A stretch of DNA of 64,000 nt, from NCBI GenBank assembly GCA_964016885.1, contig OZ024741.1, forward strand, positions 122,760,001 to 122,824,000, written 5' to 3'. This stretch comes from Eledone cirrhosa (Eukaryota). The translations under genes and the position numbers were made by a program. The notes below the pieces were generated by a model. It did no database searches, was not told the origin of the DNA, and saw only the letters and a program-made list of their open reading frames with translations. This document shows positions 5,374 to 61,231 of the stretch, piece after piece (position 1 is the stretch's first letter; the number at the start of each line of letters is the position of its first letter).

Positions 5374-5419
<46 letters not shown>

Positions 5420-37004: not shown

Positions 37005-37049
<45 letters not shown>

Positions 37050-37309
37050 TTTCTTTATTAACCACAAGGGTTTACATAAAGTAGACATTAAGGACAGTGC
37101 AGGACAATGCAGGACGGTACAAATGGGCATTTCTGCGTGTAAAAAAACAAAAACAGAGGATGTAACAAAAATAACAATGAAAATAACAATGAAAAATTCC
37201 CCAATAGGGGGGAGACTTCGGAGGGACATTTGTGGAGAAAGCCCAGTAAAAAGCCACAATGACCCTGACCACCAAGGCAAGTGCCCTCTCCCAGTTTTCC
37301 ACCTTTAGT

Positions 37310-40300
37310 TTACAGATATATACTCAGAGTCGGCCCATTCACTCGGGCCATTCTTGCTTCTCTCACCCATCTTTCAACAAAATGCTGGGAAGAGAGCACT
37401 TCCCTCTCTACTCTGATTTTCCTTTTCAAATGAAATTTGAAAAAGTCAATCAGAGCATCACCGAAGAGGTAAGTGCTCGTCTTCAGCCCTTTCAAACGTG
37501 TCCACCATACTATCTCTTTCGCCATGGCCACCAGACAGATAAAAACTGCCTGCCCTTCCCGGCTAAAGGAGGAGGGCGGGGCAATCCTCACGATAGACTC
37601 AGATGATAGCTGGATCCGTCCTAAACGCGACAGCAGGTGTTCGACATAAACCCACAAGTCAGCAATTTTCGGACACTGGACGAGTGCGTGCAGGACGGTT
37701 TCGTCGCCCTGCGCGCATCTCGGACATGCCCGGCTGACGGCACCTCCATGCCTGTAGAGTTTATCCCGAACTGGCAAGGCTCCTCGGTAGCACTGCCAGG
37801 CCAGAGATTTCTGGAAGTTGTCCATAGGCCCTGGCCCGAAAGTTCTTCCGAAGAGATTGGCTAGTTGATTTTCGTCGACGCCTAGAGTTTCCCCAAGTAC
37901 GTCGTCGCTCTTCTCCTCCACTAATCCTCTATAGAACGCCGAGGTGGAGTTTCCACCGATCACATTGCCCGATTGGTCGAGGGCTGTGAGCGCCTGAAGA
38001 CATTCCAGTCTCCAGGCGCTCCCTCTCGGTCTTCGCTTGACCCAGGACTGCAGCTCCGTCAAGGAAACGAGCTGGGGAAAAACGCGTCTAGCAAACGGCG
38101 ACCACACCTGATCACCGTCGAGGAAGAGGTGGAGATGTCGTAGCCTGAGCGCGTGCCTGCGCATCATCAGCCACGGCATGCCCAGCCCTCCACGTAGCGG
38201 GTGTTGACAACAGATGGACCGCCTGACCATCGGAGCACGTCCCTTCCACAAAAAGCGAAAGAGCAAACGCTCCAGCGCAGTCAGGCGAGGCTTAGGACAA
38301 GGTACGACGGTTAGGCGGTAGCAGATGACAGACGCGATGTACGCGTTAGCCACCTCCGCTCGACCTTTCAGGGATAGCTTCCTCTCCGCCCATTTCTGGG
38401 TGAGAGAAGCCACCCTGCTCGTCACCTCGTCCCAGTTTTTGTCCGTCTGGAGGTCCGGACCGAACCAGACCCCTAGCAATTTAACCGGTCCGTCCGTCCA
38501 GCGCCCGACGACGCTGTTGGACGGCATGGACCTGCCTCTCCAGGTGCCGAGCTGCAGGCCCACTGACTTTTCCTGGTTGATCATTGCTCCTGTCACCGCT
38601 TCGTATTCTCTTAGTGTAGTGCCGATCGCCTCGATGTGTTTGGCGTTCGACACCACTACGGTGACATCGTCCGCATATGCTGACACGGATCTTCCGCATC
38701 CTAGTTCGCGCGGGACTCCCCTCAACGTCTCCAGTTTGTGCAGTAATGGCTCGAGCGTCAATACGTACAAGAGGGACGAGAGGGGACATCCTTGGCGGAC
38801 CGAGCGCATGATGTTGAACGGTTCCGACAGGTGACCGTTCACTCTCACCACAGAGCAGATGTCGCTGTGCATGGCAGCGATCCAGCCTCTGAAGACGGGC
38901 CCAAAGCCAGCCGCCCTCAGGACTGCCGCCAGGTAACGATGGTCGACCCTATCGAAAGCTTTCGACTGATCTAAATTGATCAAGGACCCACCCGTGCCAG
39001 GTTCCCTAGCTACCCTCTCTACGATGTATCGCATGAGGTGGAGGTTGTCGTGGATGGATCTGTCGGGAATGGCGCATGTCTGCGCCTCTCCCACCAGACC
39101 ACCAACGACAAGCGCCAACCTCTTTGCTAGCACCTTGGCCAAAATCTTAAACTCTGTGTTTAGCAGAGTTATGGGCCGGAAATTGTCTATGTTATCCCCC
39201 TTGTTCGGATCCTTTCTCAGCAGTGCCACCGCTCCTCGGCTCACAGAACTGGGAATTCTCCCGTTCTGTTGCCAGTTGCAGTACACGTCCGCCAAGAGGC
39301 CTCCGAACAAGCCTGGCATCTGTACGTAAAGTTCATAGGGCAGACCATCCAAACCAGGCGATTTACCCCTTGTGCAGCCAGTCATTGCCTCCCTTACTTC
39401 AGCGGCTGTTATCGGCTTTTCGCAACACCTCGCCTCAGTGGCCGAGAGCCGCGGCAGTCCGTCGAGGTAGACACTAAAGTCCATCCCTCTACCCGGCCCA
39501 CCGCTGCCCCCGAACAGCTGAGCGAAGTGTCGCTGAAAAGCTTCACACATTTGCCCGGGATCGAGTAGCATGCGCCCGTCGTGGTCCACCAAAGACCGGA
39601 TCGTGGCTTTGTTGCCACGACGCGCCTCCGCCACTCGGGCCCATTGAACGGCTTTCGTCCCCTCGTGTCTGAGAGCACGCACCCTTGCTCTGACAACGCA
39701 GCCTTCGTGCTTTGCATTGAAGAATTGGTCAAGGGCCAATTTCGCCGCAAGCACGTCGGTCGCAATGCCTTTGCTAAGCGCCTCGTCTAATTTTCTAACT
39801 AGTTCTCCCTCTGCTCTATTTTTCTCTATTGCTAAAGCCTTACTAAACCTAATCGATTCTATTCTAATCGCTCTTTTCAGAGCAAACCACCACTTGTTGT
39901 TGACGATGGCCCCCGTCAACGCCCGCTTAACTAGTTCGCTAATCCGGTCTCTGTAGGCCTTGCGCGCTGGTAAGGACGCGTTTAGCTTCCAGTAGCCGGG
40001 TCCTCGTCTATGAAGCCTATCTAAGTCAAGCACACAGATCACGAATTTGTGGTCCGTGTAGCTGACTATCTTGAATTGTGGACAGCCTATGCTAGACCTA
40101 TCTATTTCCCTACAAAATACTCTATCTAGATATGATCTGGATGACCCTATGCGGTTTGTCCAAGTCCACATTGGCACATTCGGGAAATCCAATCGGTACC
40201 TGTCAGACAGTTCAAAACGCCTGAGCAGGTTGGTGAGGCTCTTGCACCCTCCACCCCTATCCGCTAATCCCACACAGTCCCAGCGTGCATCTAAGATCCC

Positions 40301-40729
40301 GTTCCAGTCGCCCACTAACACTAAAGAGCGGGACGTTCCAAGAAAGGTCTCCAGACGCCGGAAGAAATCAGGCCGCCCTGCTCCTGTCGGGGCATAGACG
40401 GCCACTAGCCTGAAAGCTTGCCCGTCTCCGCTGGTCACGTCCAGCACCACCAGCTTACCCTCTGGGTCCAGGAAGATGGCCCGTATGGCGAGATCCAAAC
40501 CTCTCCGAAAAAGCACAGCAACTCCTCCACCGGATCCAGGACGGCTGGGAGATGCGTACACATCGTAGCCGCCGAAGATCGGTGCGAAGGCCCGTGCTTC
40601 GGAGATTCTGGTCTCGCTGATGGCCACTACATCTATGTTTAGTGACCTGAGGTCGTTGAGCAGGTGACCCTGCTTCCATGACGACCCCAAGCCACGCGCA
40701 TTTATGCTGCCTATTCTGAGTGAGGTCAT
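37310..40729 (-). CDS. Tx1 ORF2p (APE endonuclease, RT, C-terminal zinc finger), 1139 aa, copy 1
   Basis: SINARGL, ISET, VYAP, GDWN, YLDR, TDH; GPGYWKLN; FRPITLLN, LDQSKAFD, VRQGCPLS, YADD; CPRC...H....C. Confidence 0.97.
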   Translation of the reverse strand: MTSLRIGSINARGLGSSWKQGHLLNDLRSLNIDVVAISETRISEARAFAPIFGGYDVYASPSRPGSGGGVAVLFRRGLDLAIRAIFLDPEGKLVVLDVTSGDGQAFRLVAVYAPTGAGRPDFFRRLETFLGTSRSLVLVGDWNGILDARWDCVGLADRGGGCKSLTNLLRRFELSDRYRLDFPNVPMWTWTNRIGSSRSYLDRVFCREIDRSSIGCPQFKIVSYTDHKFVICVLDLDRLHRRGPGYWKLNASLPARKAYRDRISELVKRALTGAIVNNKWWFALKRAIRIESIRFSKALAIEKNRAEGELVRKLDEALSKGIATDVLAAKLALDQFFNAKHEGCVVRARVRALRHEGTKAVQWARVAEARRGNKATIRSLVDHDGRMLLDPGQMCEAFQRHFAQLFGGSGGPGRGMDFSVYLDGLPRLSATEARCCEKPITAAEVREAMTGCTRGKSPGLDGLPYELYVQMPGLFGGLLADVYCNWQQNGRIPSSVSRGAVALLRKDPNKGDNIDNFRPITLLNTEFKILAKVLAKRLALVVGGLVGEAQTCAIPDRSIHDNLHLMRYIVERVAREPGTGGSLINLDQSKAFDRVDHRYLAAVLRAAGFGPVFRGWIAAMHSDICSVVRVNGHLSEPFNIMRSVRQGCPLSSLLYVLTLEPLLHKLETLRGVPRELGCGRSVSAYADDVTVVVSNAKHIEAIGTTLREYEAVTGAMINQEKSVGLQLGTWRGRSMPSNSVVGRWTDGPVKLLGVWFGPDLQTDKNWDEVTSRVASLTQKWAERKLSLKGRAEVANAYIASVICYRLTVVPCPKPRLTALERLLFRFLWKGRAPMVRRSICCQHPLRGGLGMPWLMMRRHALRLRHLHLFLDGDQVWSPFARRVFPQLVSLTELQSWVKRRPRGSAWRLECLQALTALDQSGNVIGGNSTSAFYRGLVEEKSDDVLGETLGVDENQLANLFGRTFGPGPMDNFQKSLAWQCYRGALPVRDKLYRHGGAVSRACPRCAQGDETVLHALVQCPKIADLWVYVEHLLSRLGRIQLSSESIVRIAPPSSFSREGQAVFICLVAMAKEIVWWTRLKGLKTSTYLFGDALIDFFKFHLKRKIRVEREVLSSQHFVERWVREARMARVNGPTLSIYL

Positions 40730-40764
40730 GTTTAAAATAGAGTGGAAAAGATGGGAAAGACCAC

Positions 40765-42858
40765 TTACCGTATTTTTGGTAGAGGAGGGATGGTTTTTAC
40801 ATCCCTTTTCACTTGATCGTCTGGTGAAGGGACCGTTGAATCGTCCCTTCGGCTGGTCGTCGGCTCTTCTAAGAGAATGTCTGAATATACTCTTCGATTA
40901 ATGGTTCCTCCTAGGTCCCTGAAATCACCAACTGCGTTGGGGAATTTCGTTTTAATGTTTGTGTATTGTTTCTGTGCTATTTTTAGCAGTCTTATGTTAG
41001 TTGGCGTTTTGATTGGTGCTGGTATTATGTAGTCCTGTTGTGAAATGTCTGTGTGTTCAATTATGTAAGTCATTAGTTTCTTGTTGTGTGTGTTTATTGC
41101 CGTGCATTTGTTTTTCTGGGGGTGGGGTGTGGTTCTGCTATTTTCTTGTCGTTGTTGCTGGGTGTGTGTGTTTTGTTGTTGTGTTTGCGATGTTGGTGCT
41201 TGTGGTGTTGAAGGTGTTGTTGGCGGTGGGGTTGTCGCCGGTGGTGATGGTGGTGCTGGTGTGGGTGGTGATGGTGTTGGTGGTGTTGCTGCTGTGGGTC
41301 TCTTTGCAGTAGACTTTACCCTTTTCTCATTTCTTTCCTCCCTTTTCAAAGGCGACGATGCGCTGCTTCTGCGTTTGTGCCTTCTTGAGACCTTTTGCCA
41401 TCCCTCTCCCACCTCACACTCCATGTCTGATTCTGTAAGGTCGGGGAGGGGTACCAGCTCCACTCTTTCACTTGTTGTTGTTGGTGATGTTTGCACTGGA
41501 GTCTCTGTTGCAGCTGCATTTGGTATTGCTGTTGTTGTTGTTAATATTTCCACTGCTGCTGCTGTCTTTGATTTCCGTGGAGTGGGTATGGGTGCCACGG
41601 ACCTATCGTTCCTGGTTGCCGCTTGTCCTGTTGCTGGTAGCCGTGGAACCGGATTCGGGAGGAGGGGGGTTTTCTCCTTTCTCAGGGTCTTCTCGTTGCA
41701 GAAGGCCCTGAGGTGAGTCTTCGATCCACAGCGAAAGCATTTCGGGCGTTTGCCCTCAACACTTATGGGCAGTTGAGTGCCGTTATCGAAGTCTATCACA
41801 TCCGGGATAGCTTCGATGCACTCCTGGTTGGTTTGGATTAGCATCTCAATGGAGGAGCCGACCCAATCTTCTCTTACTTTTTTCTGTACTTGCAGTACAG
41901 TTGTTTTGTCCTCGATTCCGACGAGGACAGACGCGGCCAGCCAAGAAGGGGTCATTCCGGGGGGGACGTGGGTCAGTTTGACCCTCACAATTTTTTGCCC
42001 GCAGTAGGAGGGCACCAACACCATTTCCTCGCTCCTTAGGGTCACTACTGATTGGGCTTTTGCCTCCTGGGGTGTGGCAAAAAGTACGTCTACGGTGGCG
42101 TATTTTTTGCCTCGGGTGATGTGCGTTTTCCTCTGCCACACAGACCCCAAGGCTTTTTGTATTTGGGCCTCTGTGGCTCTTTCCACCCTACGGGATTTTG
42201 TACTTACTGTACGGTACGTGACCGTACAGTGCTCTTGGGTTTCGAAAAAATTTTTCGCTGCCTTGCAGATTGCTCGGTGTCCGTTCTTTGTCACCATCTT
42301 CTTCGCTTCCTCTAATTCCTCATTTGTTATGAGGATTGTTTCCAGGTTTTTCGCAATACCTGCAAATGAGATTGGTTTTTCTCTGCTGTTGTTGTTGTCG
42401 TCAGAGCTGCTGGTACTTTTGTTGTTGCTGCAGGTACTACGACTACTGCCTCCGCCGCTGTTGCTGTGGTTGTTGTTGGTGTTGCTGCTGCTAATGCTGT
42501 TGTTGTTTATGCTGCTGGTGATGCTGTTGCGGCTGCTACTGTTGTTTTCATTGTCACTGTTGCTGTTGTTATTACGGCTGCTACTGCTGTTATTCCTGAC
42601 GTCAGACGAATGAACTGGGTTTTCGTATTTCCCGCACACCTGTTTCGTCGCTGTCGTCGTCGTCGTGGAGAAACCTTGCACGCTTTGCACGAGACTTTTC
42701 TTTTCTTTCGTCGCTTGCGAAAGAGAAGGTAGGGAGAGAGACACATTTAAAGAAGGGAGGGAGAGAGACAATCTTCTCTCTCCTGTAGTGATGATTGAGG
42801 AAGAAGAAGACGGAATGAGTGGGAGTGACGTATGAAATTTTTTTTTTTTGGTAGCCAT
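40765..42858 (-). CDS. Tx1 ORF1p (S/N-rich region, RRM-like, CCHC knuckle, P/T/Q-rich region), 697 aa, copy 1
   Basis: Real ATG (MATKK) at 42858; CFRCGSKTHLRAFC; VRVKLTHVPP RRM-like strand; frame open. Confidence 0.92.
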   Translation of the reverse strand: MATKKKKFHTSLPLIPSSSSSIITTGERRLSLSLPSLNVSLSLPSLSQATKEKKSLVQSVQGFSTTTTTATKQVCGKYENPVHSSDVRNNSSSSRNNNSNSDNENNSSSRNSITSSINNNSISSSNTNNNHSNSGGGSSRSTCSNNKSTSSSDDNNNSREKPISFAGIAKNLETILITNEELEEAKKMVTKNGHRAICKAAKNFFETQEHCTVTYRTVSTKSRRVERATEAQIQKALGSVWQRKTHITRGKKYATVDVLFATPQEAKAQSVVTLRSEEMVLVPSYCGQKIVRVKLTHVPPGMTPSWLAASVLVGIEDKTTVLQVQKKVREDWVGSSIEMLIQTNQECIEAIPDVIDFDNGTQLPISVEGKRPKCFRCGSKTHLRAFCNEKTLRKEKTPLLPNPVPRLPATGQAATRNDRSVAPIPTPRKSKTAAAVEILTTTTAIPNAAATETPVQTSPTTTSERVELVPLPDLTESDMECEVGEGWQKVSRRHKRRSSASSPLKREERNEKRVKSTAKRPTAATPPTPSPPTPAPPSPPATTPPPTTPSTPQAPTSQTQQQNTHTQQQRQENSRTTPHPQKNKCTAINTHNKKLMTYIIEHTDISQQDYIIPAPIKTPTNIRLLKIAQKQYTNIKTKFPNAVGDFRDLGGTINRRVYSDILLEEPTTSRRDDSTVPSPDDQVKRDVKTIPPLPKIR

Positions 42859-43071
42859 GTTTTTTTGTTTAAAATGAAATTTTGGGTACAAAACCCCAAT
42901 AACTGGCTATTTAACCCCGAAGGGCCAAATAACGGACAGAAAGACCCCTCTCACGAGGAGGAGGGTGTCTTTATCAACAATTTGGTTCAAGTTTTAAACA
43001 ATTTACAATTGTTTTAACGGTTAAAAATTACTATACCTTACAGAGCCGAGCCTCCGTCAACCATGGCATTC
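42859..43071 (-). promoter_or_regulatory. Structured 5' UTR / probable internal promoter of the Tx1 element (same in all four full copies)
   Basis: Several hairpins, including a 12-bp stem with cUUCGg loop (42906-42933); uORF MVDGGSAL (43038-43064). Promoter function is inferred from L1-clade biology. Confidence 0.55.
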
Positions 43072-43372
43072 AATAATAATAATAATAATAATAATATTAA
43101 TAATAATAATGATTTCTTTATTAACCACAAGGGTTTACATAAAGTAGACATTAAGGACAGTGCAGGACAATGCAGGACGGTACAAATGGGCATTTCTGCG
43201 TGTAAAAAAACAAAAACAGAGGATGTAACAAAAATAACAATGAAAATAACAATGAAAAATTCCCCAATAGGGGGGAGACTTCGGAGGGACATTTGTGGAG
43301 AAAGCCCAGTAAAAAGCCACAATGACCCTGACCACCAAGGCAAGTGCCCTCTCCCAGTTTTCCACCTTTAGT

Positions 43373-46300
43373 TTACAGATATATACTCAGAGTCGGCCCA
43401 TTCACTCGGGCCATTCTTGCTTCTCTCACCCATCTTTCAACAAAATGCTGGGAAGAGAGCACTTCCTTCTCTACTCTGATTTTCCTTTTCAAATGAAATT
43501 TGAAAAAGTCAATCAGAGCATCACCGAAGAGGTAAGTGCTCGTCTTCAGCCCTTTCAAACGTGTCCACCATACTATCTCTTTCGCCATGGCCACCAGACA
43601 GATAAAAACTGCCTGCCCTTCCCGGCTAAAGGAGGAGGGCGGGGCAATCCTCACGATAGACTCAGATGATAGCTGGATCCGTCCTAAACGCGACAGCAGG
43701 TGTTCGACATAAACCCACAAGTCAGCAATTTTCGGACACTGGACGAGTGCGTGCAGGACGGTTTCGTCGCCCTGCGCGCATCTCGGACATGCCCGGCTGA
43801 CGGCACCTCCATGCCTGTAGAGTTTATCCCGAACTGGCAAGGCTCCTCGGTAGCACTGCCAGGCCAGAGATTTCTGGAAGTTGTCCATAGGCCCCGGCCC
43901 AAAAGTTCTTCCGAAGAGATTGGCTAGTTGATTTTCGTCGACGCCTAGAGTTTCCCCAAGTACGTCGTCGCTCTTCCCCTCCACTAATCCTCTATAGAAC
44001 GCCGAGGTGGAGTTTCCACCGATCACATTGCCCGATTGGTCGAGGGCTGTGAGCGCCTGAAGACATTCCAGTCTCCAGGCGCTCCCTCTCGGTCTTCGCT
44101 TGACCCAGGACTGCAGCTCCGTCAAGGAAACGAGCTGGGGAAAAACGCGTCTAGCAAACGGCGACCACACCTGATCACCGTCGAGGAAGAGGTGGAGATG
44201 TCGTAGCCTGAGCGCGTGCCTGCGCATCATCAGCCACGGCATGCCCAGCCCTCCACGTAGCGGGTGTTGACAACAGATGGACCGCCTGACCATCGGAGCA
44301 CGTCCCTTCCACAAAAAGCGAAAGAGCAAACGCTCCAGCGCAGTCAGGCGAGGCTTAGGACAAGGTACGACGGTTAGGCGGTAGCAGATGACAGACGCGA
44401 TGTACGCGTTAGCCACCTCCGCTCGACCTTTCAGGGATAGCTTCCTCTCCGCCCATTTCTGGGTGAGAGAAGCCACCCTGCTCGTCACCTCGTCCCAGTT
44501 TTTGTCCGTCTGGAGGTCCGGACCGAACCAGACCCCTAGCAATTTAACCGGTCCGTCCGTCCAGCGCCCGACGACGCTGTTGGACGGCATGGACCTGCCT
44601 CTCCAGGTGCCGAGCTGCAGGCCCACTGACTTTTCCTGGTTGATCATTGCTCCTGTCACCGCTTCGTATTCTCTTAGTGTAGTGCCGATCGCCTCGATGT
44701 GTTTGGCGTTCGACACCACTACGGTGACATCGTCCGCATATGCTGACACGGATCTTCCGCATCCTAGTTCGCGCGGGACTCCCCTCAACGTCTCCAGTTT
44801 GTGCAGTAATGGCTCGAGAGTCAATACGTACAAGAGGGACGAGAGGGGACATCCTTGGCGGACCGAGCGCATGATGTTGAACGGTTCCGACAGGTGACCG
44901 TTCACTCTCACCACAGAGCAGATGTCGCTGTGCATGGCAGCGATCCAGCCTCTGAAGACGGGCCCAAAGCCAGCCGCCCTCAGGACTGCCGCTAGGTAAC
45001 GATGGTCGACCCTATCGAAAGCTTTCGACTGATCTAAATTGATCAAGGACCCACCCGTGCCAGGTTCCCTAGCTACCCTCTCTACGATGTATCGCATGAG
45101 GTGGAGGTTGTCGTGGATGGATCTGTCGGGAATGGCGCATGTCTGCGCCTCTCCCACCAGACCACCAACGACAAGCGCCAACCTCTTTGCTAGCACCTTG
45201 GCCAAAATCTTAAACTCTGTGTTTAGCAGAGTTATGGGCCGGAAATTGTCTATGTTATCCCCCTTGTTCGGATCCTTTCTCAGCAGTGCCACCGCTCCTC
45301 GGCTCACAGAACTGGGAATTCTCCCGTTCTGTTGCCAGTTGCAGTAGACGTCCGCCAAGAGGCCTCCGAACAAGTCTGGCATCTGTACGTAAAGTTCATA
45401 GGGCAGACCATCCAAACCAGGCGATTTACCCCTTGTGCAGCCAGTCATTGCCTCCCGTACTTCAGCGGCTGTTATCGGCTTTTCGCAACACCTCGCCTCA
45501 GTGGCCGAGAGCCGCGGCAGCCCGTCGAGGTAGACACTAAAGTCCATCCCTCTACCCGGCCCCCCGCTGCCCCCGAACAGCTGAGCGAAGTGTCGCTGAA
45601 AAGCTTCACACATTTGCCCGGGATCGAGTAGCATGCGCCCGTCGTGGTCCACCAAAGACCGGATCGTGGCTTTGTTGCCACGACGCGCCTCCGCCACTCG
45701 GGCCCATTGAACGGCTTTCGTCCCCTCGTGTCTGAGAGCACGCACCCTAGCTCTGACAACGCAGCCTTCGTGCTTTGCATTGAAGAATTGGTCAAGGGCC
45801 AATTTCGCCGCAAGCACGTCGGTCGCAATGCCTTTGCTAAGCGCCTCGTCTAATTTTCTAACTAGTTCTCCCTCTGCTCTATTTTTCTCTATTGCTAAAG
45901 CCTTACTAAACCTAATCGATTCTATTCTAATCGCTCTTTTCAGAGCAAACCACCACTTGTTGTTGACGATGGCCCCCGTCAACGCCCGCTTAACTAGTTC
46001 GCTAATCCGGTCTCTGTAGGCCTTGCGCGCTGGTAAGGACGCGTTTAGCTTCCAGTAGCCGGGTCCTCGTCTATGAAGCCTATCTAAGTCAAGCACACAG
46101 ATCACGAATTTGTGGTCCGTGTAGCTGACTATCTTGAATTGTGGACAGCCTATGCTAGACCTATCTATTTCCCTACAAAATACTCTATCTAGATATGATC
46201 TGGATGACCCTATGCGGTTTGTCCAAGTCCACATTGGCACATTCGGGAAATCCAATCGGTACCTGTCAGACAGTTCAAAACGCCTGAGCAGGTTGGTGAG

Positions 46301-46792
46301 GCTCTTGCACCCTCCACCCCTATCCGCTAATCCCACACAGTCCCAGCGTGCATCTAAGATCCCGTTCCAGTCGCCCACTAACACTAAAGAGCGCGACGTT
46401 CCAAGAAAGGTCTCCAGACGCCGGAAGAAATCAGGCCGCCCTGCTCCTGTCGGGGCATAGACGGCCACTAGCCTGAAAGCTTGCCCGTCTCCGCTGGTCA
46501 CGTCCAGCACCACCAGCTTACCCTCTGGGTCCAGGAAGATGGCCCGTATGGCGAGATCCAAACCTCTCCGAAAAAGCACAGCAACTCCTCCACCCGATCC
46601 AGGACGGCTGGGAGATGCGTACACATCGTAGCCGCCGAAGATCGGTGCGAAGGCCCGTGCTTCGGAGATTCTGGTCTCGCTGATGGCCACTACATCTATG
46701 TTTAGTGACCTGAGGTCGTTGAGCAGGTGACCCTGCTTCCATGACGACCCCAAGCCACGCGCATTTATGCTGCCTATTCTGAGTGAGGTCAT
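43373..46792 (-). CDS. Tx1 ORF2p, 1139 aa, copy 2
   Basis: Intact; all endonuclease, RT and zinc-finger motifs present. Confidence 0.97.
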   Translation of the reverse strand: MTSLRIGSINARGLGSSWKQGHLLNDLRSLNIDVVAISETRISEARAFAPIFGGYDVYASPSRPGSGGGVAVLFRRGLDLAIRAIFLDPEGKLVVLDVTSGDGQAFRLVAVYAPTGAGRPDFFRRLETFLGTSRSLVLVGDWNGILDARWDCVGLADRGGGCKSLTNLLRRFELSDRYRLDFPNVPMWTWTNRIGSSRSYLDRVFCREIDRSSIGCPQFKIVSYTDHKFVICVLDLDRLHRRGPGYWKLNASLPARKAYRDRISELVKRALTGAIVNNKWWFALKRAIRIESIRFSKALAIEKNRAEGELVRKLDEALSKGIATDVLAAKLALDQFFNAKHEGCVVRARVRALRHEGTKAVQWARVAEARRGNKATIRSLVDHDGRMLLDPGQMCEAFQRHFAQLFGGSGGPGRGMDFSVYLDGLPRLSATEARCCEKPITAAEVREAMTGCTRGKSPGLDGLPYELYVQMPDLFGGLLADVYCNWQQNGRIPSSVSRGAVALLRKDPNKGDNIDNFRPITLLNTEFKILAKVLAKRLALVVGGLVGEAQTCAIPDRSIHDNLHLMRYIVERVAREPGTGGSLINLDQSKAFDRVDHRYLAAVLRAAGFGPVFRGWIAAMHSDICSVVRVNGHLSEPFNIMRSVRQGCPLSSLLYVLTLEPLLHKLETLRGVPRELGCGRSVSAYADDVTVVVSNAKHIEAIGTTLREYEAVTGAMINQEKSVGLQLGTWRGRSMPSNSVVGRWTDGPVKLLGVWFGPDLQTDKNWDEVTSRVASLTQKWAERKLSLKGRAEVANAYIASVICYRLTVVPCPKPRLTALERLLFRFLWKGRAPMVRRSICCQHPLRGGLGMPWLMMRRHALRLRHLHLFLDGDQVWSPFARRVFPQLVSLTELQSWVKRRPRGSAWRLECLQALTALDQSGNVIGGNSTSAFYRGLVEGKSDDVLGETLGVDENQLANLFGRTFGPGPMDNFQKSLAWQCYRGALPVRDKLYRHGGAVSRACPRCAQGDETVLHALVQCPKIADLWVYVEHLLSRLGRIQLSSESIVRIAPPSSFSREGQAVFICLVAMAKEIVWWTRLKGLKTSTYLFGDALIDFFKFHLKRKIRVEKEVLSSQHFVERWVREARMARVNGPTLSIYL

Positions 46793-46827
46793 GTTTAAAA
46801 TAGAGTGGAAAAGATGGGAAAGACCAC

Positions 46828-48894
46828 TTACCGTATTTTTGGTAGAGGAGGGATGGTTTTTACATCCCTTTTCACTTGATCGTCTGGTGAAGGGACCGTT
46901 GAATCGTCCCTTCGGCTGGTCGTCGGCTCTTCTAAGAGAATGTCTGAATATACTCTTCGATTAATGGTTCCACCTAGGTCCCTGAAATCACCAACTGCGT
47001 TGGGGAATTTCGTTTTAATGTTTGTGTATTGTTTCTGTGCTATTTTTAGCAGTCTTATGTTAGTTGGCGTTTTGATTGGTGCTGGTATTATGTAGTCCTG
47101 TTGTGAAATGTCTGTGTGTTCAATTATGTAAGTCATTAGTTTCTTGTTGTGTGTGTTTATTGCCGTGCATTTGTTTTTCTGGGGGTGGGGTGTGGTTCTG
47201 CTATTTTCTTGTCGTTGTTGCTGGGTGTGTGTGTTTTGTTGTTGTGTTTGCGATGTTGGTGCTTGTGGGGGTGGTGTTGAAGGTGTTGTTGGCGGTGGCG
47301 TTGTCGCCGGTGGTGATGGTGGTGCTGGTGTGGGTGGTGATGGTGTTGGTGGTGTTGCTGCTGTGGGTCTCTTTGCAGTAGACTTTACCCTTTTCTCATT
47401 TCTTTCCTCCCTTTTCAAAGGCGACGATGCGCTGCTTCTGCGTTTGTGCCTTCTTGCGACCTTTTGCCATCCCTCTCCCACCTCACACTCCATGTCTGAT
47501 TCTGTAAGGTCGGGGAGGGGTACCAGCTCCACTCTTTCACTTGTTGTTGTTGGTGATGTTTGCACTGGAGTCTCTGTTGCAGCTGCATTTGGTATTGCTG
47601 TTGTTGTTAATATTTCCACTGCTGCTGCTGTCTTTGATTTCCGTGGAGTGGGTATGGGTGCCACGGACCTATCGTTCCTGGTTGCCGCTTGTCCTGTTGC
47701 TGGTAGCCGTGGAGCCGGATTCGGAAGGAGGGGGGTTTTCTCCTTTCTCAGGGTCTTCTCGTTGCAGAAGGCCCTGAGGTGAGTCTTCGATCCACAGCGA
47801 AAGCATTTCGGGCGTTTGCCCTCAACACTTATGGGCAGTTGAGTGCCGTTATCGAAGTCTATCACATCCGGGATAGCTTCGATGCACTCCTGGTTGGTTT
47901 GGATTAGCATCTCAATGGAGGAGCCGACCCAATCTTCTCTTACTTTTTTCTGTACTTGCAGTACAGTTGTTTTGTCCTCGATTCCGACGAGGACAGACGC
48001 GGCCAGCCAAGAAGGGGTCATTCCGGGGGGGACGTGGGTCAGTTTGACCCTCACAATTTTTTGCCCGCAGTAGGAGGGCACCAACACCATTTCCTCGCTC
48101 CTTAGGGTCACTACTGATTGGGCCTTTGCCTCCTGGGGTGTGGCAAAAAGTACGTCTACGGTGGCGTATTTTTTGCCTCGGGTGATGTGCGTTTTCCTCT
48201 GCCACACAGACCCCAAGGCTTTTTGTATTTGGGCCTCTGTGGCTCTTTCCACCCTACGGGATTTTGTACTTACTGTACGGTACGTGACCGTACAGTGCTC
48301 TTGGGTTTCGAAAAAATTTTTCGCTGCCTTGCAGATTGCTCGGTGTCCGTTCTTTGTCACCATCTTCTTCGCTTCCTCTAATTCCTCATTTGTTATGAGG
48401 ATTGTTTCCAAGTTTTTCGCAATACCTGCAAATGAGATTGGTTTTTCTCTGCTGTTGTTGTTGTCGTCAGAGCTGCTGGTACTTTTGTTGTTGCTGCAGG
48501 TACTACGACTACTGCCTCCGCCGCTGTTGCTGTGGTTGTTGTTGGTGTTGCTGCTGCTAATGCTGTTGTTGTTTATGCTGCTGGTGATGCTGTTGCGGCT
48601 GCTACTGTTGTTTTCATTGTCACTGTTGCTGTTGTTATTACGGCTGCTACTGCTATTATTCCTGACGTCAGACGAATGAACTGGGTTTTCGTATTTCCCG
48701 CACACCTGTTTCGTCGCTGTCGTCGTCGTCGTGGAGAAACTTTGCACGCTTTGCACGAGACTTTTCTTTTCTTTCGTCGCTTGCGAAAGAGAAGGGAGGG
48801 AGAGAGACAATCTTCTCTCTGCTGTAGTGATGATTGAGGAAGAAGAAGACGGAATGAGTGGGAGTGACGTATGAAATTTCTTTTTCGTAGCCAT
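46828..48894 (-). CDS. Tx1 ORF1p, 688 aa, copy 2
   Basis: ATG at 48894; lacks the 27-nt NVSLSLPSL duplication; frame intact. Confidence 0.92.
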   Translation of the reverse strand: MATKKKFHTSLPLIPSSSSSIITTAERRLSLSLPSLSQATKEKKSLVQSVQSFSTTTTTATKQVCGKYENPVHSSDVRNNSSSSRNNNSNSDNENNSSSRNSITSSINNNSISSSNTNNNHSNSGGGSSRSTCSNNKSTSSSDDNNNSREKPISFAGIAKNLETILITNEELEEAKKMVTKNGHRAICKAAKNFFETQEHCTVTYRTVSTKSRRVERATEAQIQKALGSVWQRKTHITRGKKYATVDVLFATPQEAKAQSVVTLRSEEMVLVPSYCGQKIVRVKLTHVPPGMTPSWLAASVLVGIEDKTTVLQVQKKVREDWVGSSIEMLIQTNQECIEAIPDVIDFDNGTQLPISVEGKRPKCFRCGSKTHLRAFCNEKTLRKEKTPLLPNPAPRLPATGQAATRNDRSVAPIPTPRKSKTAAAVEILTTTAIPNAAATETPVQTSPTTTSERVELVPLPDLTESDMECEVGEGWQKVARRHKRRSSASSPLKREERNEKRVKSTAKRPTAATPPTPSPPTPAPPSPPATTPPPTTPSTPPPQAPTSQTQQQNTHTQQQRQENSRTTPHPQKNKCTAINTHNKKLMTYIIEHTDISQQDYIIPAPIKTPTNIRLLKIAQKQYTNIKTKFPNAVGDFRDLGGTINRRVYSDILLEEPTTSRRDDSTVPSPDDQVKRDVKTIPPLPKIR

Positions 48895-49385
48895 GTTTTT
48901 TTTGTTTAAAATGAAATTTTGGGTACAAAACCCCAATAACTGGTTATTTAACCCCGAAGGGCCAAATAACGGACAGAAAGACCCCTCTCACGAGGAGGAG
49001 GGTGTCTTTATCAACAATTTGGTTCAAGTTTTAAACAATTTACAATTGTTTTAACGGTTAAAAATTACTATACCTTACAGAGCCGAGCCTCCGTCAACCA
49101 TGGCATTCAATAATAATAATAATAATAATAATAATGATTTCTTTATTAACCACAAGGGTTTACATAAAGTAGACATTAAGGACAGTGCAGGACAATGCAG
49201 GACGGTACAAATGGGCATTTCTGCGTGTAAAAAACAAAAACAGAGGATGTAACAAAAAATAACAATGAAAAATTCCCCAATAGGGGGCAGACTTCGGAGG
49301 GACATTTGTGGAGAAAGCCCAGTAAAAAGCCACAATGACCCTGACCACCAAGGCAAGTGCCCTCTCCCAGTTTTCCACCTTTAGT

Positions 49386-52300
49386 TTACAGATATATACT
49401 CAGAGTCGGCCCATTCACTCGGGCCATTCTTGCTTCTCTCACCCATCTTTCAACAAAATGCTGGGAAGAGAGCACTTCCTTCTCTACTCTGATTTTCCTT
49501 TTCAAATGAAATTTGAAAAAGTCAATCAGAGCATCACCGAAGAGGTAAGTGCTCGTCTTCAGCCCTTTCAAACGTGTCCACCATACTATCTCTTTCGCCA
49601 TGGCCACCAGACAGATAAAAACTGCCTGCCCTTCCCGGCTAAAGGAGGAGGGCGGGGCAATCCTCACGATAGACTCAGATGATAGCTGGATCCGTCCTAA
49701 ACGCGACAGCAGGTGTTCGACATAAACCCACAAGTCAGCAATTTTCGGACACTGGACGAGTGCGTGCAGGACGGCTTCGTCGCCCTGCGCGCATCTCGGA
49801 CATGCCCGGCTGACGGCACCTCCATGCCTGTAGAGTTTATCCCGAACTGGCAAGGCTCCTCGGTAGCACTGCCAGGCCAGAGATTTCTGGAAGTTGTCCA
49901 TAGGCCCTGGCCCGAAAGTTCTCCCGAAGAGATTGGCTAGTTGATTTTCGTCGACGCCTAGAGTTTCCCCAAGTACGTCGTCGCTCTTCCCCTCCACTAA
50001 TCCTCTATAGAACGCCGAGGTGGAGTTTCCACCGATCACATTGCCCGATTGGTCGAGGGCTGTGAGCGCCTGAAGACATTCCAGTCTCCAGGCGCTCCCT
50101 CTCGGTCTTCGCTTGACCCAGGACTGCAGCTCCGTCAAGGAAACGAGCTGGGGAAAAACGCGTCTAGCAAACGGCGACCACACCTGATCACCGTCGAGGA
50201 AGAGGTGGAGATGTCGTAGCCTGAGCGCGTGCCTGCGCATCATCAGCCACGGCATGCCCAGCCCTCCACGTAGCGGGTGTTGACAACAGATGGACCGCCT
50301 GACCATCGGAGCACGTCCCTTCCACAAAAAGCGAAAGAGCAAACGCTCCAGCGCAGTCAGGCGAGGCTTAGGACAAGGTACGACGGTTAGGCGGTAGCAG
50401 ATGACAGACGCGATGTACGCGTTAGCCACCTCCGCTCGACCTTTCAGGGATAGCTTCCTCTCCGCCCATTTCTGGGTGAGAGAAGCCACCCTGCTCGTCA
50501 CCTCGTCCCAGTTTTTGTCCGTCTGGAGGTCCGGACCGAACCAGACCCCTAGCAATTTAACCGGTCCGTCCGTCCAGCGCCCGACGACGCTGTTGGACGG
50601 CATGGACCTGCCTCTCCAGGTGCCGAGCTGCAGGCCCACTGACTTTTCCTGGTTGATCATTGCTCCTGTCACCGCTTCGTATTCTCTTAGTGTAGTGCCG
50701 ATCGCCTCGATGTGTTTGGCGTTCGACAACACTACGGTGACATCGTCCGCATATGCTGACACGGATCTTCCGCATCCTAGTTCGCGCGGGACTCCCCTCA
50801 ATGTCTCCAGTTTGTGCAGTAATGGCTCGAGAGTCAATACGTACAAGAGGGACGAGAGGGGACATCCTTGGCGGACCGAGCGCATGATGTTGAACGGTTC
50901 CGACAGGTGACCGTTCACTCTCACCACAGAGCAGATGTCGCTGTGCATGGCAGCGATCCAGCCTCTGAAGACGGGCCCAAAGCCAGCCGCCCTCAGGACT
51001 GCCGCTAGGTAACGATGGTCGACCCTATCGAAAGCTTTCGACTGATCTAAATTGATCAAGGACCCACCCGTGCCAGCTTCCCTAGCTACCCTCTCTACGA
51101 TGTATCGCATGAGGTGGAGGTTGTCGTGGATGGATCTGTCGGGAATGGCGCATGTCTGCGCCTCTCCCACCAGACCACCAACGACAAGCGCCAACCTCTT
51201 TGCTAGCACCTTGGCCAAAATCTTAAACTCTGTGTTTAGCAGAGTTATGGGCCGGAAATTGTCTATGTTATCCCCCTTGTTCGGATCCTTTCTCAGCAGT
51301 GCCACCGCTCCTCGGCTCACAGAACTGGGAATTCTCCCGTTCTGTTGCCAGTTGCAGTAGACGTCCGCCAAGAGGCCTCCGAACAAGTCTGGCATCTGTA
51401 CGTAAAGTTCATAGGGCAGACCATCCAAACCAGGCGATTTACCCCTTGTGCAGCCAGTCATTGCCTCCCGTACTTCAGCGGCTGTTATCGGCTTTTCGCA
51501 ACACCTCGCCTCAGTGGCCGAGAGCCGCGGCAGTCCGTCGAGGTAGACACTAAAGTCCATCCCTCTACCCGGCCCCCCGCTGCCCCCGAACAGCTGAGCG
51601 AAGTGTCGCTGAAAAGCTTCACACATTTGCCCGGGATCGAGTAGCATGCGCCCGTCGTAGTCCACCAAAGACCGGATCGTGGCTTTGTTGCCACGACGCG
51701 CCTCCGCCACTCGGGCCCATTGAACGGCTTTCGTCCCCTCGTGTCTGAGAGCACGCACCCTAGCTCTGACAACGCAGCCTTCGTGCTTTGCATTGAAGAA
51801 TTGGTCAAGGGCCAATTTCGCCGCAAGCACGTCGGTCGCAATGCCTTTGCTAAGCGCCTCGTCTAATTTTCTAACTAGTTCTCCCTCTGCTCTATTTTTC
51901 TCTATTGCTAAAGCCTTACTAAACCTAATCGATTCTATTCTAATCGCTCTTTTCAGAGCAAACCACCACTTGTTGTTGACGATGGCCCCCGTCAACGCCC
52001 GCTTAACTAGTTCGCTAATCCGGTCTCTGTAGGCCTTGCGCGCTGGTAAGGACGCGTTTAGCTTCCAGTAGCCGGGTCCTCGTCTATGAAGCCTATCTAA
52101 GTCAAGCACACAGGTCACGAATTTGTGGTCCGTGTAGCTGACTATCTTGAATTGTGGACAGCCTATGCTAGACCTATCTATTTCCCTACAAAATACTCTA
52201 TCTAGATATGATCTGGATGACCCTATGCGGTTTGTCCAAGTCCACATTGGCACATTCGGGAAATCCAATCGGTGCCTGTCAGACAGTTCAAAACGCCTGA

Positions 52301-52805
52301 GCAGGTTGGTGAGGCTCTTGCACCCTCCACCCCTATCCGCTAATCCCACACAGTCCCAGCGTGCATCTAAGATCCCGTTCCAGTCGCCCACTAACACTAA
52401 AGAGCGGGACGTTCCAAGAAAGGTCTCCAGTCGCCGGAAGAAATCAGGCCGCCCTGCTCCTGTCGGGGCATAGACGGCCACTAGCCTGAAAGCTTGCCCG
52501 TCTCCGCTGGTCACGTCCAGCACCACCAGCTTACCCTCTGGGTCCAGGAAGATGGCCCGTATGGCGAGATCCAAACCTCTCCGAAAAAGCACAGCAACTC
52601 CTCCACCCGATCCAGGACGGCTGGGAGATGCGTACACATCGTGGCCGCCGAAGTTCGGTGCGAAGGCCCGTGCTTCGGACATTCTGGTCTCGCTGATGGC
52701 CACTACATCTATGTTTAGTGACCTGAGGTCGTTGAGCAGGTGACCCTGCTTCCATGACGACCCCAAGCCACGCGCATTTATGCTGCCTATTCTGAGTGAG
52801 GTCAT
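49386..52805 (-). CDS. Tx1 ORF2p, 1139 aa, copy 3
   Basis: Intact; several private substitutions in the endonuclease domain. Confidence 0.97.
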   Translation of the reverse strand: MTSLRIGSINARGLGSSWKQGHLLNDLRSLNIDVVAISETRMSEARAFAPNFGGHDVYASPSRPGSGGGVAVLFRRGLDLAIRAIFLDPEGKLVVLDVTSGDGQAFRLVAVYAPTGAGRPDFFRRLETFLGTSRSLVLVGDWNGILDARWDCVGLADRGGGCKSLTNLLRRFELSDRHRLDFPNVPMWTWTNRIGSSRSYLDRVFCREIDRSSIGCPQFKIVSYTDHKFVTCVLDLDRLHRRGPGYWKLNASLPARKAYRDRISELVKRALTGAIVNNKWWFALKRAIRIESIRFSKALAIEKNRAEGELVRKLDEALSKGIATDVLAAKLALDQFFNAKHEGCVVRARVRALRHEGTKAVQWARVAEARRGNKATIRSLVDYDGRMLLDPGQMCEAFQRHFAQLFGGSGGPGRGMDFSVYLDGLPRLSATEARCCEKPITAAEVREAMTGCTRGKSPGLDGLPYELYVQMPDLFGGLLADVYCNWQQNGRIPSSVSRGAVALLRKDPNKGDNIDNFRPITLLNTEFKILAKVLAKRLALVVGGLVGEAQTCAIPDRSIHDNLHLMRYIVERVAREAGTGGSLINLDQSKAFDRVDHRYLAAVLRAAGFGPVFRGWIAAMHSDICSVVRVNGHLSEPFNIMRSVRQGCPLSSLLYVLTLEPLLHKLETLRGVPRELGCGRSVSAYADDVTVVLSNAKHIEAIGTTLREYEAVTGAMINQEKSVGLQLGTWRGRSMPSNSVVGRWTDGPVKLLGVWFGPDLQTDKNWDEVTSRVASLTQKWAERKLSLKGRAEVANAYIASVICYRLTVVPCPKPRLTALERLLFRFLWKGRAPMVRRSICCQHPLRGGLGMPWLMMRRHALRLRHLHLFLDGDQVWSPFARRVFPQLVSLTELQSWVKRRPRGSAWRLECLQALTALDQSGNVIGGNSTSAFYRGLVEGKSDDVLGETLGVDENQLANLFGRTFGPGPMDNFQKSLAWQCYRGALPVRDKLYRHGGAVSRACPRCAQGDEAVLHALVQCPKIADLWVYVEHLLSRLGRIQLSSESIVRIAPPSSFSREGQAVFICLVAMAKEIVWWTRLKGLKTSTYLFGDALIDFFKFHLKRKIRVEKEVLSSQHFVERWVREARMARVNGPTLSIYL

Positions 52806-52840
52806 GTTTAAAATAGAGTGGAAAAGATGGGAAAGACCAC

Positions 52841-54937
52841 TTACCGTACTTTTGGTAGAGGAGGGATGGTTTTTACATCCCTTTTCACTTGATCGTCTGG
52901 TGAAGGGACCGTTGAATCGTCCCTTCGGCTGGTCGTCGGCTCTTCTAAGAGAATGTCTGAATATACTCTTCGATTGATGGTTCCTCCTAGGTCCCTGAAA
53001 TCACCAACTGCGTTGGGGAATTTCGTTTTAATGTTTGTGTATTGTTTCTGTGCTATTTTTAACAGTCTTATGTTAGTTGGCGTTTTGATTGGTGCTGGTA
53101 TTATGTAGTCCTGTTGTGAAATGTCTGTGTGTTCAATTATGTAAGTCATTAGTTTCTTGTTGTGTGTGTTTATTGCCGTGCATTTGTTTTTCTGGGGGTG
53201 GGGTGTGGTTCTGCTATTTTCTTGTCGTTGTTGCTGGGTGTGTGTGTTTTGTTGTTGTGTTTGCGATGTTGGTGCTTGTGGTGGTGGTGTTGAAGGTGTT
53301 GTTGGCGGTGGGGTTGTTGCCGGTGGTGATGGTGGTGCTGGTGTGGGTGGTGATGGTGTTGGTGGTGTTGCTGCTGTGGGTCTCTTTGCAGTAGACTTTA
53401 CCCTTTTCTCATTTCTTTCCTCCCTTTTCAAAGGCGACGATGCGCTGCTTCTGCGTTTGTGCCTTCTTGCGACCTTTTGCCATCCCTCTCCCACCTCACA
53501 CTCCATGTCTGATTCTGTAAGGTCGGGGAGGGGTACCAGCTCCACTCTTTCACTTGTTGTTGTTGGTGATGTTTGCACTGGAGTCTCTGTTGCAGCTGCA
53601 TTTGGTATTGCTGTTGTTGTTGTTAATATTTCCACTGCTGCTGCTGTCTTTGATTTCCGTGGAGTGGGTATGGGTGCCACGGACTTATCGTTCCTGGTTG
53701 CCGCTTGTCCTGTTGCTGGTAGCCGTGGAGCCGGATTCGGAAGGAGGGGGGTTTTCTCCTTTCTCAGGGTCTTCTCGTTGCAGAAGGCCCTGAGGTGAGT
53801 CTTCGATCCACAGCGAAAGCATTTCGGGCGTTTGCCCTCAACACTTATGGGCAGTTGAGTGCCGTTATCGAAGTCTATCACATCCGGGATAGCTTCGATG
53901 CACTCCTGGTTGGTTTGGATTAGCATCTCAATGGAGGAGCCGACCCAATCTTCTCTTACTTTTTTCTGTACTTGCAGTACAGTTGTTTTGTCCTCGATTC
54001 CGACGAGGACAGACGCGGCCAGCCAAGAAGGGGTCATTCCGGGGGGGACGTGGGTCAGTTTGACCCTCACAATTTTTTGCCCGCAGTAGGAGGGCACCAA
54101 CACCATTTCCTCGCTCCTTAGGGTCACTACTGATTGGGCCTTTGCCTCCTGGGGTGTGGCAAAAAGTACGTCTACGGTGGCGTATTTTTTGCCTCGGGTG
54201 ATGTGCGTTTTCCTCTGCCACACAGACCCCAAGGCTTTTTGTATTTGGGCCTCTGTGGCTCTTTCCACCCTACGGGATTTTGTACTTACTGTACGGTACG
54301 TGACCGTACAGTGCTCTTGGGTTTCGAAAAAATTTTTCGCTGCCTTGCAGATTGCTCGGTGTCCGTTCTTTGTCACCATCTTCTTCGCTTCCTCTAATTC
54401 CTCATTTGTTATGAGGATTGTTTCCAAGTTTTTCGCAATACCTGCAAATGAGATTGGTTTTTCTCTGCTGTTGTTGTTGTCGTCAGAGCTGCTGGTACTT
54501 TTGTTGTTGCTGCAGGTACTACGACTACTGCCTCCGCCGCTGTTGCTGTGGTTGTTGTTGGTGTTGCTGCTGCTAATGCTGTTGTTGTTTATGCTGCTGG
54601 TGATGCTGTTGCGGCTGCTACTGTTGTTTTCATTGTCACTGTTGCTGTTGTTATTACGGCTGCTACTGCTATTATTCCTGACGTCAGACGAATGAACTGG
54701 GTTTTCGTATTTCCCGCACACCTGTTTCGTCGCTGTCGTCGTCGTCGTGGAGAAACCTTGCACGCTTTGCACGAGACTTTTCTTTTCTTTCGTCGCTTGC
54801 GAAAGAGAAGGGAGGGAGAGAGACACATTTAAAGAAGGGAGGGAGAGAGACAATCTTCTCTCTGCTGTAGTGATGATTGAGGAAGAAGAAGACGGAATGA
54901 GTGGGAGTGACGTATGAAATTTCTTTTTCGTAGCCAT
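52841..54937 (-). CDS. Tx1 ORF1p, 698 aa, copy 3
   Basis: ATG at 54937; intact. Confidence 0.92.
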   Translation of the reverse strand: MATKKKFHTSLPLIPSSSSSIITTAERRLSLSLPSLNVSLSLPSLSQATKEKKSLVQSVQGFSTTTTTATKQVCGKYENPVHSSDVRNNSSSSRNNNSNSDNENNSSSRNSITSSINNNSISSSNTNNNHSNSGGGSSRSTCSNNKSTSSSDDNNNSREKPISFAGIAKNLETILITNEELEEAKKMVTKNGHRAICKAAKNFFETQEHCTVTYRTVSTKSRRVERATEAQIQKALGSVWQRKTHITRGKKYATVDVLFATPQEAKAQSVVTLRSEEMVLVPSYCGQKIVRVKLTHVPPGMTPSWLAASVLVGIEDKTTVLQVQKKVREDWVGSSIEMLIQTNQECIEAIPDVIDFDNGTQLPISVEGKRPKCFRCGSKTHLRAFCNEKTLRKEKTPLLPNPAPRLPATGQAATRNDKSVAPIPTPRKSKTAAAVEILTTTTAIPNAAATETPVQTSPTTTSERVELVPLPDLTESDMECEVGEGWQKVARRHKRRSSASSPLKREERNEKRVKSTAKRPTAATPPTPSPPTPAPPSPPATTPPPTTPSTPPPQAPTSQTQQQNTHTQQQRQENSRTTPHPQKNKCTAINTHNKKLMTYIIEHTDISQQDYIIPAPIKTPTNIRLLKIAQKQYTNIKTKFPNAVGDFRDLGGTINRRVYSDILLEEPTTSRRDDSTVPSPDDQVKRDVKTIPPLPKVR

Positions 54938-55438
54938 GTTTTTTTGTTTAAAATGAAATTTTGGGTACAAAACCCCAATAACTGGTTATTTAACCCCGAA
55001 GGGCCAAATAACGGACAGAAAGACCCCTCTCACGAGGAGGAGCGTGTCTTTATCAACAATTTGGTTCAAGTTTTAAACAATTTACAATTGTTTTAACGGT
55101 TAAAAATTACTATACCTTACAGAGCCGAGCCTCCGTCAACCATGGCATTCAATAATAATAATAATAATAATAATAATGATTTCTTTATTAACCACAAGGG
55201 TTTACATAAAGTAGACATTAAGGACAGTGCAGGACAATGCAGGACGGTACAAATGGGCATTTCTGCGTGTAAAAATCAAAAACAGAGGATGTAACAAAAA
55301 TAACAATGAAAATAACAATGAAAAATTCCCCAATAGGGGGGAGACTTCGGAGGGACATTTGTGGTGAAAGCCCAGTAAAAAGCCACAATGACCCTGACCA
55401 CCAAGGCAAGTGCCCTCTCCCAGTTTTCCACCTTTAAT

Positions 55439-58858: not shown

Positions 58859-58893
58859 GTTTAAAATAGAGTGGAAAAGATGGGAAAGACCAC

Positions 58894-60987: not shown

Positions 60988-61200
60988 GTTTTTTTGTTTA
61001 AAATGAAATTCTGGGTACAAAACCCCAATAACTGGTTATTTAACCCCGAAGGGCCAAATAACGGACAGAAAGACCCCTCTCACGAGGAGGAGGGTGTCTT
61101 TATCAACAATTTGGTTCAAGTTTTAAACAATTTACAATTGTTTTAACGGTTAAAAATTACTATACCTTACAGAGCCGAGCCTCCGTCAACCATGGCATTC

Positions 61201-61231
<31 letters not shown>

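What the first reader, a model, noticed from the sequence alone, without database searches (positions are those of the whole stretch)
40730..40850. The array element is a recombinant: lineage-A ORF1 joined to lineage-B ORF2, breakpoint visible
Seen: the array ORF1 matches relic A (3.9-4.95 kb) up to ...CCTTCACCAGAC(G/A)ATCAA. At ~40812 it switches to GTGAAAAGGGATG..AAACCATCCCTCCTCTAC...GGTAAGTGGTCTTTCCCATCTTTT, which matches relic B (7394-7460). B has a very different ORF1 but the closer ORF2 and spacer; A has the close ORF1 but a different spacer and a more distant ORF2. The crossover is offset, so about 14 homologous codons appear twice (TTSRRDDSTVPSPD then VKRDVKTIPPLPK). Inference: a recent ORF1/5'-module swap founded the young subfamily.
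Basis: partly seen in the sequence, partly recalled or inferred. Interest (0 to 1): 0.75.

Follow-up and report, generated by a model that had tools for sequence, protein, structure and literature searches.

The report
Hybrid LINE joined at splice donor
The tandem jumping genes here belong to a family of over 2,000 copies whose front half comes from one older LINE family and back half from another, joined exactly at a splice-donor motif, likely because an RNA running from one element into its neighbour was spliced and copied back into the genome once.

Summary
Observation confirmed. The array elements (L1-group non-LTR retrotransposon, 'C') carry the whole 2.26-kb 5' module of family A joined at window 40812|40811 to the last 42 ORF1 bases, spacer, ORF2 and 3'UTR of family B. 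ORF1 and ORF2 trees conflict (100/100 each). Both parents are multicopy families; the C junction has 2,289 exact matches, A's 79. The swap founded the C lineage but is much older than the array (early C copies differ ~6%, array copies ~1%). Four A-like basal copies keep the raw join; a later +G restored B's frame. Modelled chance is 0.1-3%, and 1 of 50 ordinary deletions fits GT-AG. Against: poor acceptor, no RNA run, no other spliced copy, and a 5-nt microhomology nearby. Splicing about 0.55. The scan noted this same family and idea before on other DNA of this genome.

The parts
37009..43071 (-). Array copy 1, full-length type C non-LTR retrotransposon (6,063 nt) ending in an (ATT)n tail
40812..43071 (-). 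A-derived 5' module: 5'UTR plus ORF1 up to A's donor position (...GATCAAG)
   Evidence: 87-97% to A copy L140 and 46-65% to three B copies in 250-nt bins
40765..42858 (-). ORF1, about 697 aa, one CX2CX4HX4C knuckle; last 14 codons from B
   Evidence: no Pfam family above cut-off
40811..40813 (-). Chimeric join: A AAG| (followed by GTAAGT in A) meets |TG (preceded by CAG in B); 2-nt shared AG
40769..40811 (-). B-derived ORF1 tail (42 nt plus one inserted G), homologous to the A codons just upstream
40730..40769 (-). B-type donor motif G|GTAAGT over the ORF1 stop, and B-type spacer
37310..40729 (-). ORF2 (endonuclease, RT, zf-RVT), B lineage
37275..37304 (-). Start of 3'UTR, predicted to pair with the donor plus spacer
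   Evidence: duplex -40.7 kcal/mol vs -25.4 +- 3.2 in 100 shuffles
43072..61200 (-). Array copies 2-4, type C, head to tail, same join
61201..64000 (-). Copy 5 (3' part), B type; its B-type junction lies beyond the window
3913..6490 (+). Relic A: 3' part of ORF1, donor AAG|GTAAGT at 4952|4953, A spacer, 5' part of ORF2
6490..11072 (+). Relic B: 3' half of ORF1, CAG|TG at 7393|7394, spacer, ORF2, tail; directly behind relic A on the same strand

Best explanation
The array element is a hybrid LINE with family A's 5'UTR and ORF1 joined to family B's ORF1 tail, spacer, ORF2 and 3' end exactly at A's splice-donor motif, and it likely arose once when an RNA running from an A copy into a B copy behind it was spliced and then retrotransposed. 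Shown: the chimera, its parents, its polarity, the GT-AG fit of the join, A-to-B tandems with donor and acceptor about 6 kb apart, and the order raw join, then +G, then younger subfamilies. Inferred: read-through of A's weak tail, U1 use of the donor, use of a cryptic CAG 42 nt before B's own donor, and cis retrotransposition by B's ORF2 (trans-splicing or RT jumping onto the free 5' exon would give the same join). The raw join ended ORF1 4 nt early in a shifted frame; the +G put the stop back on B's donor motif, and that form spread.
For: Incongruent trees: ORF2 puts C inside B, ORF1 puts C with A, 100/100 each; one switch along the whole element. Early C copies are pure A before and pure B after the join; the four raw-join copies with a pure B tail are the most A-like upstream (A-state at 20, 18, 11 and 6 of 29 sites against 3-4 in later C). 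AG|GTRAGT occurs only 1-2 times in each of four A copies. Enumerating breakpoints in three window sizes, 0.14-0.46% give this donor plus an AG, 0.75-2.7% if 2 nt of homology is required, 0.12-0.21% for YAG. Only 1 of 50 internal deletions fits GT-AG, and not at a strong donor. A 10-nt in-register match (AAGGTAAGTG) lies 42 nt away and was not used. 14 of 79 A copies have a B 5' part as first downstream element within 7 kb; one full A-B pair has a 6,195-nt donor-acceptor span. A GTAAGT or AG|GTA motif sits 37-45 nt before the ORF2 ATG in A, B, C and other ORF1 types, in different frames. Precedent: SVA_F1 and pt_SVA_D6 (PMC6139936).
Against: The acceptor is poor: 40% pyrimidine and several AGs just upstream. 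No other spliced product was found: 0 joins from the C donor, 2 small indels from the B donor, 1 non-AG deletion among 19 hits from the A donor, and only A among foreign partners of the B acceptor (5 of 22 hits); these patterns cover only part of the possible exon starts. A 2-nt homology is typical of the family's ordinary deletions (29 of 50 have 2 nt or more). A 5-nt AGTGA homology lies 3 nt inside A's intron side, so a switch plus a GTAAG slip could give the same join. Homologous exchange between subfamilies is common here. One event, chosen after the fact by its success. The donor is predicted to be hidden by the 3'UTR.
Confidence: 0.55

Rival explanations
1. Same hybrid, but made by reverse-transcriptase template switching between A and B RNAs, or by a DNA deletion across an A-B tandem, at short homology; the donor position is chance or the result of a switch at AGTGA followed by loss of GTAAG between two AAG repeats.
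For: Microhomology-type deletions are common (50 junctions, 0-6 nt); many homologous mosaics; 5-nt AGTGA match beside the join; an 8-nt slip deletion at the B donor exists in one copy; strand switching is the standard model for mouse L1 mosaics (PMC3600994 section 11); selection may favour joins that remove A's donor.
Against: No copy with the predicted intermediate, 0 matches at one mismatch; a direct join lands on donor plus AG in at most about 3% of cases; better homology in register was not used; 49 of 50 deletions are under 1.7 kb while this one would be about 6 kb.
Confidence: 0.35
2. A 5'-truncated B copy inserted into an A copy at the ORF1 end, and A's promoter then drove the hybrid (nested-insertion model).
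For: Proposed for ORF1 shuffling in PMC4120745; truncated and nested copies occur among A loci.
Against: These elements sit at (ATT)n tails and A's ORF1 end has no such run; none of the four raw-join copies shows A's remainder behind its tail, though the source locus may be lost; the exact donor position stays unexplained.
Confidence: 0.07
3. The array type is ancestral and A and B are each derived from it.
For: C is the most abundant form (2,289 vs 79 exact junction matches).
Against: C is nested within both parents' diversity; its oldest copies are pure A plus pure B; a more distant type shares A's single DQGK* end; B has its own 5' end and homologous ORF1.
Confidence: 0.02

Closest known systems
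Recombinant mouse L1 families L1MdTf and L1MdGf (Sookdeo et al. 2013, PMC3600994; passages and section 11 read)
   Same: A new active family takes 5' end and ORF1 from one family and ORF2 from another; trees on the two sides conflict.
   Different: Their breakpoints lie in the 5' part of ORF2; the three mechanisms listed are DNA recombination, RNA/DNA heteroduplex and strand switching; 'splic' occurs 0 times in the text. Here the join is out of register by 14 codons and on a GT-AG pair.
SVA_F1 (MAST2 exon 1) and pt_SVA_D6 (STK40 exon 1) (Damert 2018, PMC6139936; passages)
   Same: A retroelement subfamily founded by splicing a new promoter-bearing 5' part onto an internal acceptor.
   Different: Non-autonomous elements, host exons, 84-94 copies; here both parts are autonomous LINEs, a whole ORF1 is swapped and the product has over 2,000 copies.
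SpIREs (Larson et al. 2018, PMC5860796; abstract and Discussion part 1)
   Same: Spliced L1 RNA can be retrotransposed.
   Different: Splicing is within one element and the products are called dead ends; here it would be between two families and the product outgrew family A.
mRNA/LINE-1 chimeric insertions (bioRxiv 10.1101/2025.02.02.635956; passages)
   Same: 5' partners end at splice donors and join LINE sequence; cis- and trans-splicing proposed.
   Different: Partners are host transcripts, not another LINE's ORF1.
ORF1 shuffling in CR1/L2 (Metcalfe and Casane 2014, PMC4120745; passages)
   Same: Whole ORF1s move between ORF2 lineages.
   Different: Deep-time inference, other clades, nested insertion proposed; no base-level join.
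Tx1-clade elements Kibi and Koshi (as described in PMC4494074; passages)
   Same: Endonuclease-RT elements inserted at microsatellites.
   Different: Target here is (ATT)n; clade membership was not tested by phylogeny.

Membership tests
L1-group non-LTR retrotransposon | ORF2 with APE endonuclease, RT and C-terminal zinc domain | tested here: met
   PF03372, PF00078, PF13966 above cut-off; best solved relative human L1 ORF2p, E 1e-51 vs R2 1e-21
L1-group non-LTR retrotransposon | Separate ORF1, no LTRs, simple-repeat 3' tail | tested here: met
Tx1 clade | RT phylogeny with reference Tx1 elements | not tested
   No named Tx1 reference came from the tools (searches gave no useful names; Atlas unavailable). 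The label Tx1 is recalled.
Tx1 clade | Target preference, e.g. a microsatellite | tested here: inconclusive
   All four array borders and several A and B heads follow (ATT)n; no genome-wide flank count
Inter-family recombinant LINE | Incongruent trees on either side of one breakpoint | tested here: met
Inter-family recombinant LINE | Both parents exist as independent multicopy families | tested here: met
Splice-born retroelement subfamily (SVA_F1 type) | 5' part ends at a donor (GT follows in the parent) | tested here: met
   AAG|GTAAGT, 79 exact A matches
Splice-born retroelement subfamily (SVA_F1 type) | 3' part starts after an acceptor AG with pyrimidine tract and branch point | tested here: inconclusive
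   CAG present; tract only 40% pyrimidine; branch point not tested
Splice-born retroelement subfamily (SVA_F1 type) | Donor is shown to be used in RNA | not testable with these tools
   no RNA holder listed
Splice-born retroelement subfamily (SVA_F1 type) | A source arrangement that puts donor upstream of acceptor in one transcript | tested here: met
   A-to-B tandems; the actual source locus was not identified

The most novel reading that the evidence does not exclude
Tandem-forming LINEs with a conserved splice donor at the end of ORF1 can swap their whole promoter-ORF1 module by ordinary spliceosomal splicing between neighbouring copies, and one such splice founded a dominant, still young autonomous LINE lineage: exon shuffling between retrotransposon families.
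Probability: 0.5. Interest if true: 0.72.

Novelty: new variant of a known kind. Interest (0 to 1): 0.48.

Why it matters
ORF1 and 5' swaps are a known engine of LINE evolution, but the mechanism is usually inferred from blurred, in-register breakpoints. Here both parents, the raw founder join, the frame-restoring step and the later expansion all survive in one genome at base resolution. If splicing made the join, it adds a route absent from the three-mechanism list in PMC3600994 and is an exception to the dead-end view of spliced L1 copies. It is directly testable with RNA from A-B tandems or a minigene. If not, it is still a clean, ordinary example of module swapping.

Tried and rejected
RNA: no RNA holder listed; contigs of 4 runs of unrecorded kind laid on 40200-41150 gave no usable joint; no evidence either way. 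Searches for other spliced copies gave nothing; the A-donor pattern covered 8 of 14 alternative first dinucleotides and only the GACG variant. Two-step intermediate: 0 matches. Mini-intron fusing ORF1 to ORF2: in frame for B and C on paper but not for the main A subtype (read), and would have caught a copy lacking it and found none; dropped. Independent origins of the join: raw-join and +G copies share derived A-side alleles, so one origin is simpler. The A-B tandem whose B carries the extra G is not the evident source: its A has other alleles and its B lacks those of the main +G branch. Spacer/3'UTR pairing as the reason for the join: B and C spacers prefer B-type 3' ends, but the A spacer pairs with both (-49), so it does not fix the breakpoint. 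B copy number was not counted. Protein searches gave no clade name. Literature searches listed no paper on a splice-made LINE-LINE hybrid family; the library lacks most subscription journals and Repbase Reports; no supplements were read.

Full report
What is there. The window holds four complete head-to-tail copies of a 6.06-kb element on the minus strand (37009-61200), part of a fifth, and two decayed relatives, A (3.9-6.5 kb) and B (6.5-11.1 kb), on the plus strand. ORF2 has endonuclease, RT and zf-RVT domains and its best solved relative is human L1 ORF2p; ORF1 has a CCHC knuckle read from the translation. It is an L1-group non-LTR retrotransposon; 'Tx1' is a recalled label that I could not test. 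The host is a 3.0-Gb assembly; that it is an octopus is my recall from a neighbouring SINE, untested.

The observation. Confirmed base by base. I then sampled the genome: 30 loci each for the array type (C), A and B (each search scored 40 candidates, so these are the closest copies, not a random sample). 29 of 30 A loci are 82-92% alike to C upstream of the join and mostly 79-86% in ORF2; 30 of 30 B loci barely align upstream and are 93-98.5% alike downstream. Along full-length copies there is one switch: the first 2.26 kb are A-like (87-97% to L140), the rest B-like (95-100% after the junction bin), and B has an unrelated 5' end. The ORF2 tree (81 of 99 rows; 18 dropped for deletions; 25 near-identical young copies left out beforehand) nests all C in B, 100/100. 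The ORF1-end tree (99 rows) groups all C with A against B, 100/100. Bootstraps had not fully settled, but these two branches are long.

Polarity and history. Exact 26-mer counts: C join 2,289, A end 79, older C with a B-like GGATGG 489 (28-mer). Early C copies are pure A before the join and pure B after it. Seven copies lack the extra G (five, two more). Three of them belong to later branches and likely lost it again; the four with a pure B tail are the most A-like upstream, so the founder had the raw join. That join read ...DDQVKRMEKPSFLYE. and stopped 4 nt before B's stop; the +G restored B's frame. Early C copies differ by 5.7-6.1%, like A (6.5%) and B (4.9%) copies, whereas array copies are 98.9-99.4% alike. 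So the swap founded the lineage, not the youngest burst. Later exchanges continued: two B copies carry young-C ORF2 alleles, one A copy has a late-C 5' part, and the young C 5'UTR looks A-like again. Copy 5 is B-type.

The join. In A the next bases are GTAAGT; in B the preceding bases are CAG. I noted this before looking at earlier findings. AG|GTRAGT occurs once or twice per A element. A breakpoint enumeration gives 0.14-0.46% for this donor plus any AG, or 0.75-2.7% if 2 nt of homology is demanded; the windows were my choice. Among 50 distinct internal deletions (61 rows before merging overlapping loci; a few duplicates may remain) one fits GT-AG. The substrate for cis-splicing exists: 14 of 79 A copies have a B 5' part as first downstream element, and one complete pair spans 6,195 nt from donor to acceptor. 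A donor-like motif precedes the ORF2 start in A, B, C and other ORF1 types, in different frames, weaker in two of them.

Against splicing. The acceptor is weak. No second spliced product turned up from the A, B or C donors or at the B acceptor, although C has thousands of tandem copies; coverage of these patterns is partial. Two bases of homology is normal for this family's deletions. A 5-nt AGTGA match lies just inside A's intron side, one of 13 matches of 5 nt or more in the region, so a switch followed by a 5-nt slip is possible; its intermediate was not found. The donor and spacer are predicted to pair with the start of the 3'UTR, which would hide the donor in finished RNA but not necessarily during transcription. 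There is no RNA evidence (see Tried and rejected). Weighing a likelihood ratio of very roughly 30-300 for splicing against a low prior of a few percent (my judgement, not a computed result) gives about even to modest odds: 0.55.

Comparison. Inter-family L1 recombinants are well known (PMC3600994), as is ORF1 shuffling (PMC4120745). Splice-founded subfamilies are known for non-autonomous SVA (PMC6139936); spliced L1 copies are called dead ends (PMC5860796); exon-LINE chimeras at donors are reported in a preprint. Nine searches listed no paper on a splice-made hybrid of two autonomous LINEs; coverage is limited and supplements were not read. Several earlier notes of this scan describe the same family on other DNA, most favouring splicing, one favouring short homology; they are not independent support.

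Verdict. The recombinant is real and well resolved (about 0.98). As a recombinant it is a new member of a known kind; the out-of-register join on a donor, with founder copies preserved, makes it a new variant. Interest 0.48; about 0.72 if splicing is shown.

Noticed in passing
L138+L177 (G000:C2:46.71-46.73 Mb, minus): Full-length A followed head to tail by full-length B whose acceptor side carries the extra G typical of C; none of the other B junctions read has it. Independent slip, back-recombinant or assembly error.
   Followed up: partly
window 40730-40769 and 37275-37304 (minus): Donor plus spacer is complementary to the start of the 3'UTR 3.4 kb away (-40.7 kcal/mol vs -25 shuffled).
   Followed up: partly
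window 6484-6495: Relic A's ORF2 runs straight into the middle of relic B's ORF1: a deleted A-B tandem or a truncated B insertion.
   Followed up: no
window 5247-5420: AT-rich insert with an (AAT)n run inside relic A's ORF2, next to A's second AAG|GTAAGT motif, with GTAAGTCGGTGG at both ends.
   Followed up: no
window 11073-11260 and 36800-37000: Both relic B and the array end just before copies of the same SINE-like repeat, which is abundant at 13.7-14, 24.7, 27-31 kb.
   Followed up: no
L141 (L079), L142 (L084), L140 (L055), L154 (L108): Further mosaics with apparently in-register crossovers between A, B and C subfamilies.
   Followed up: partly
L150, L223, L094:8250-8620, L161, L196, L198, L224: At least five more ORF1-end types of the same group, each with a donor-like motif before the ORF2 start; one shares A's spacer and ORF2 but has an ORF1 only about 70% alike.
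   Followed up: partly
patterns, genome-wide: No point change at the +2 T of the C or B donor was matched, while 18 changes at the second base after the join were; may only reflect mutation bias.
   Followed up: no
window 14-20 kb: Long plus-strand ORFs (15301-19966) and repeats of another element, not examined.
   Followed up: no
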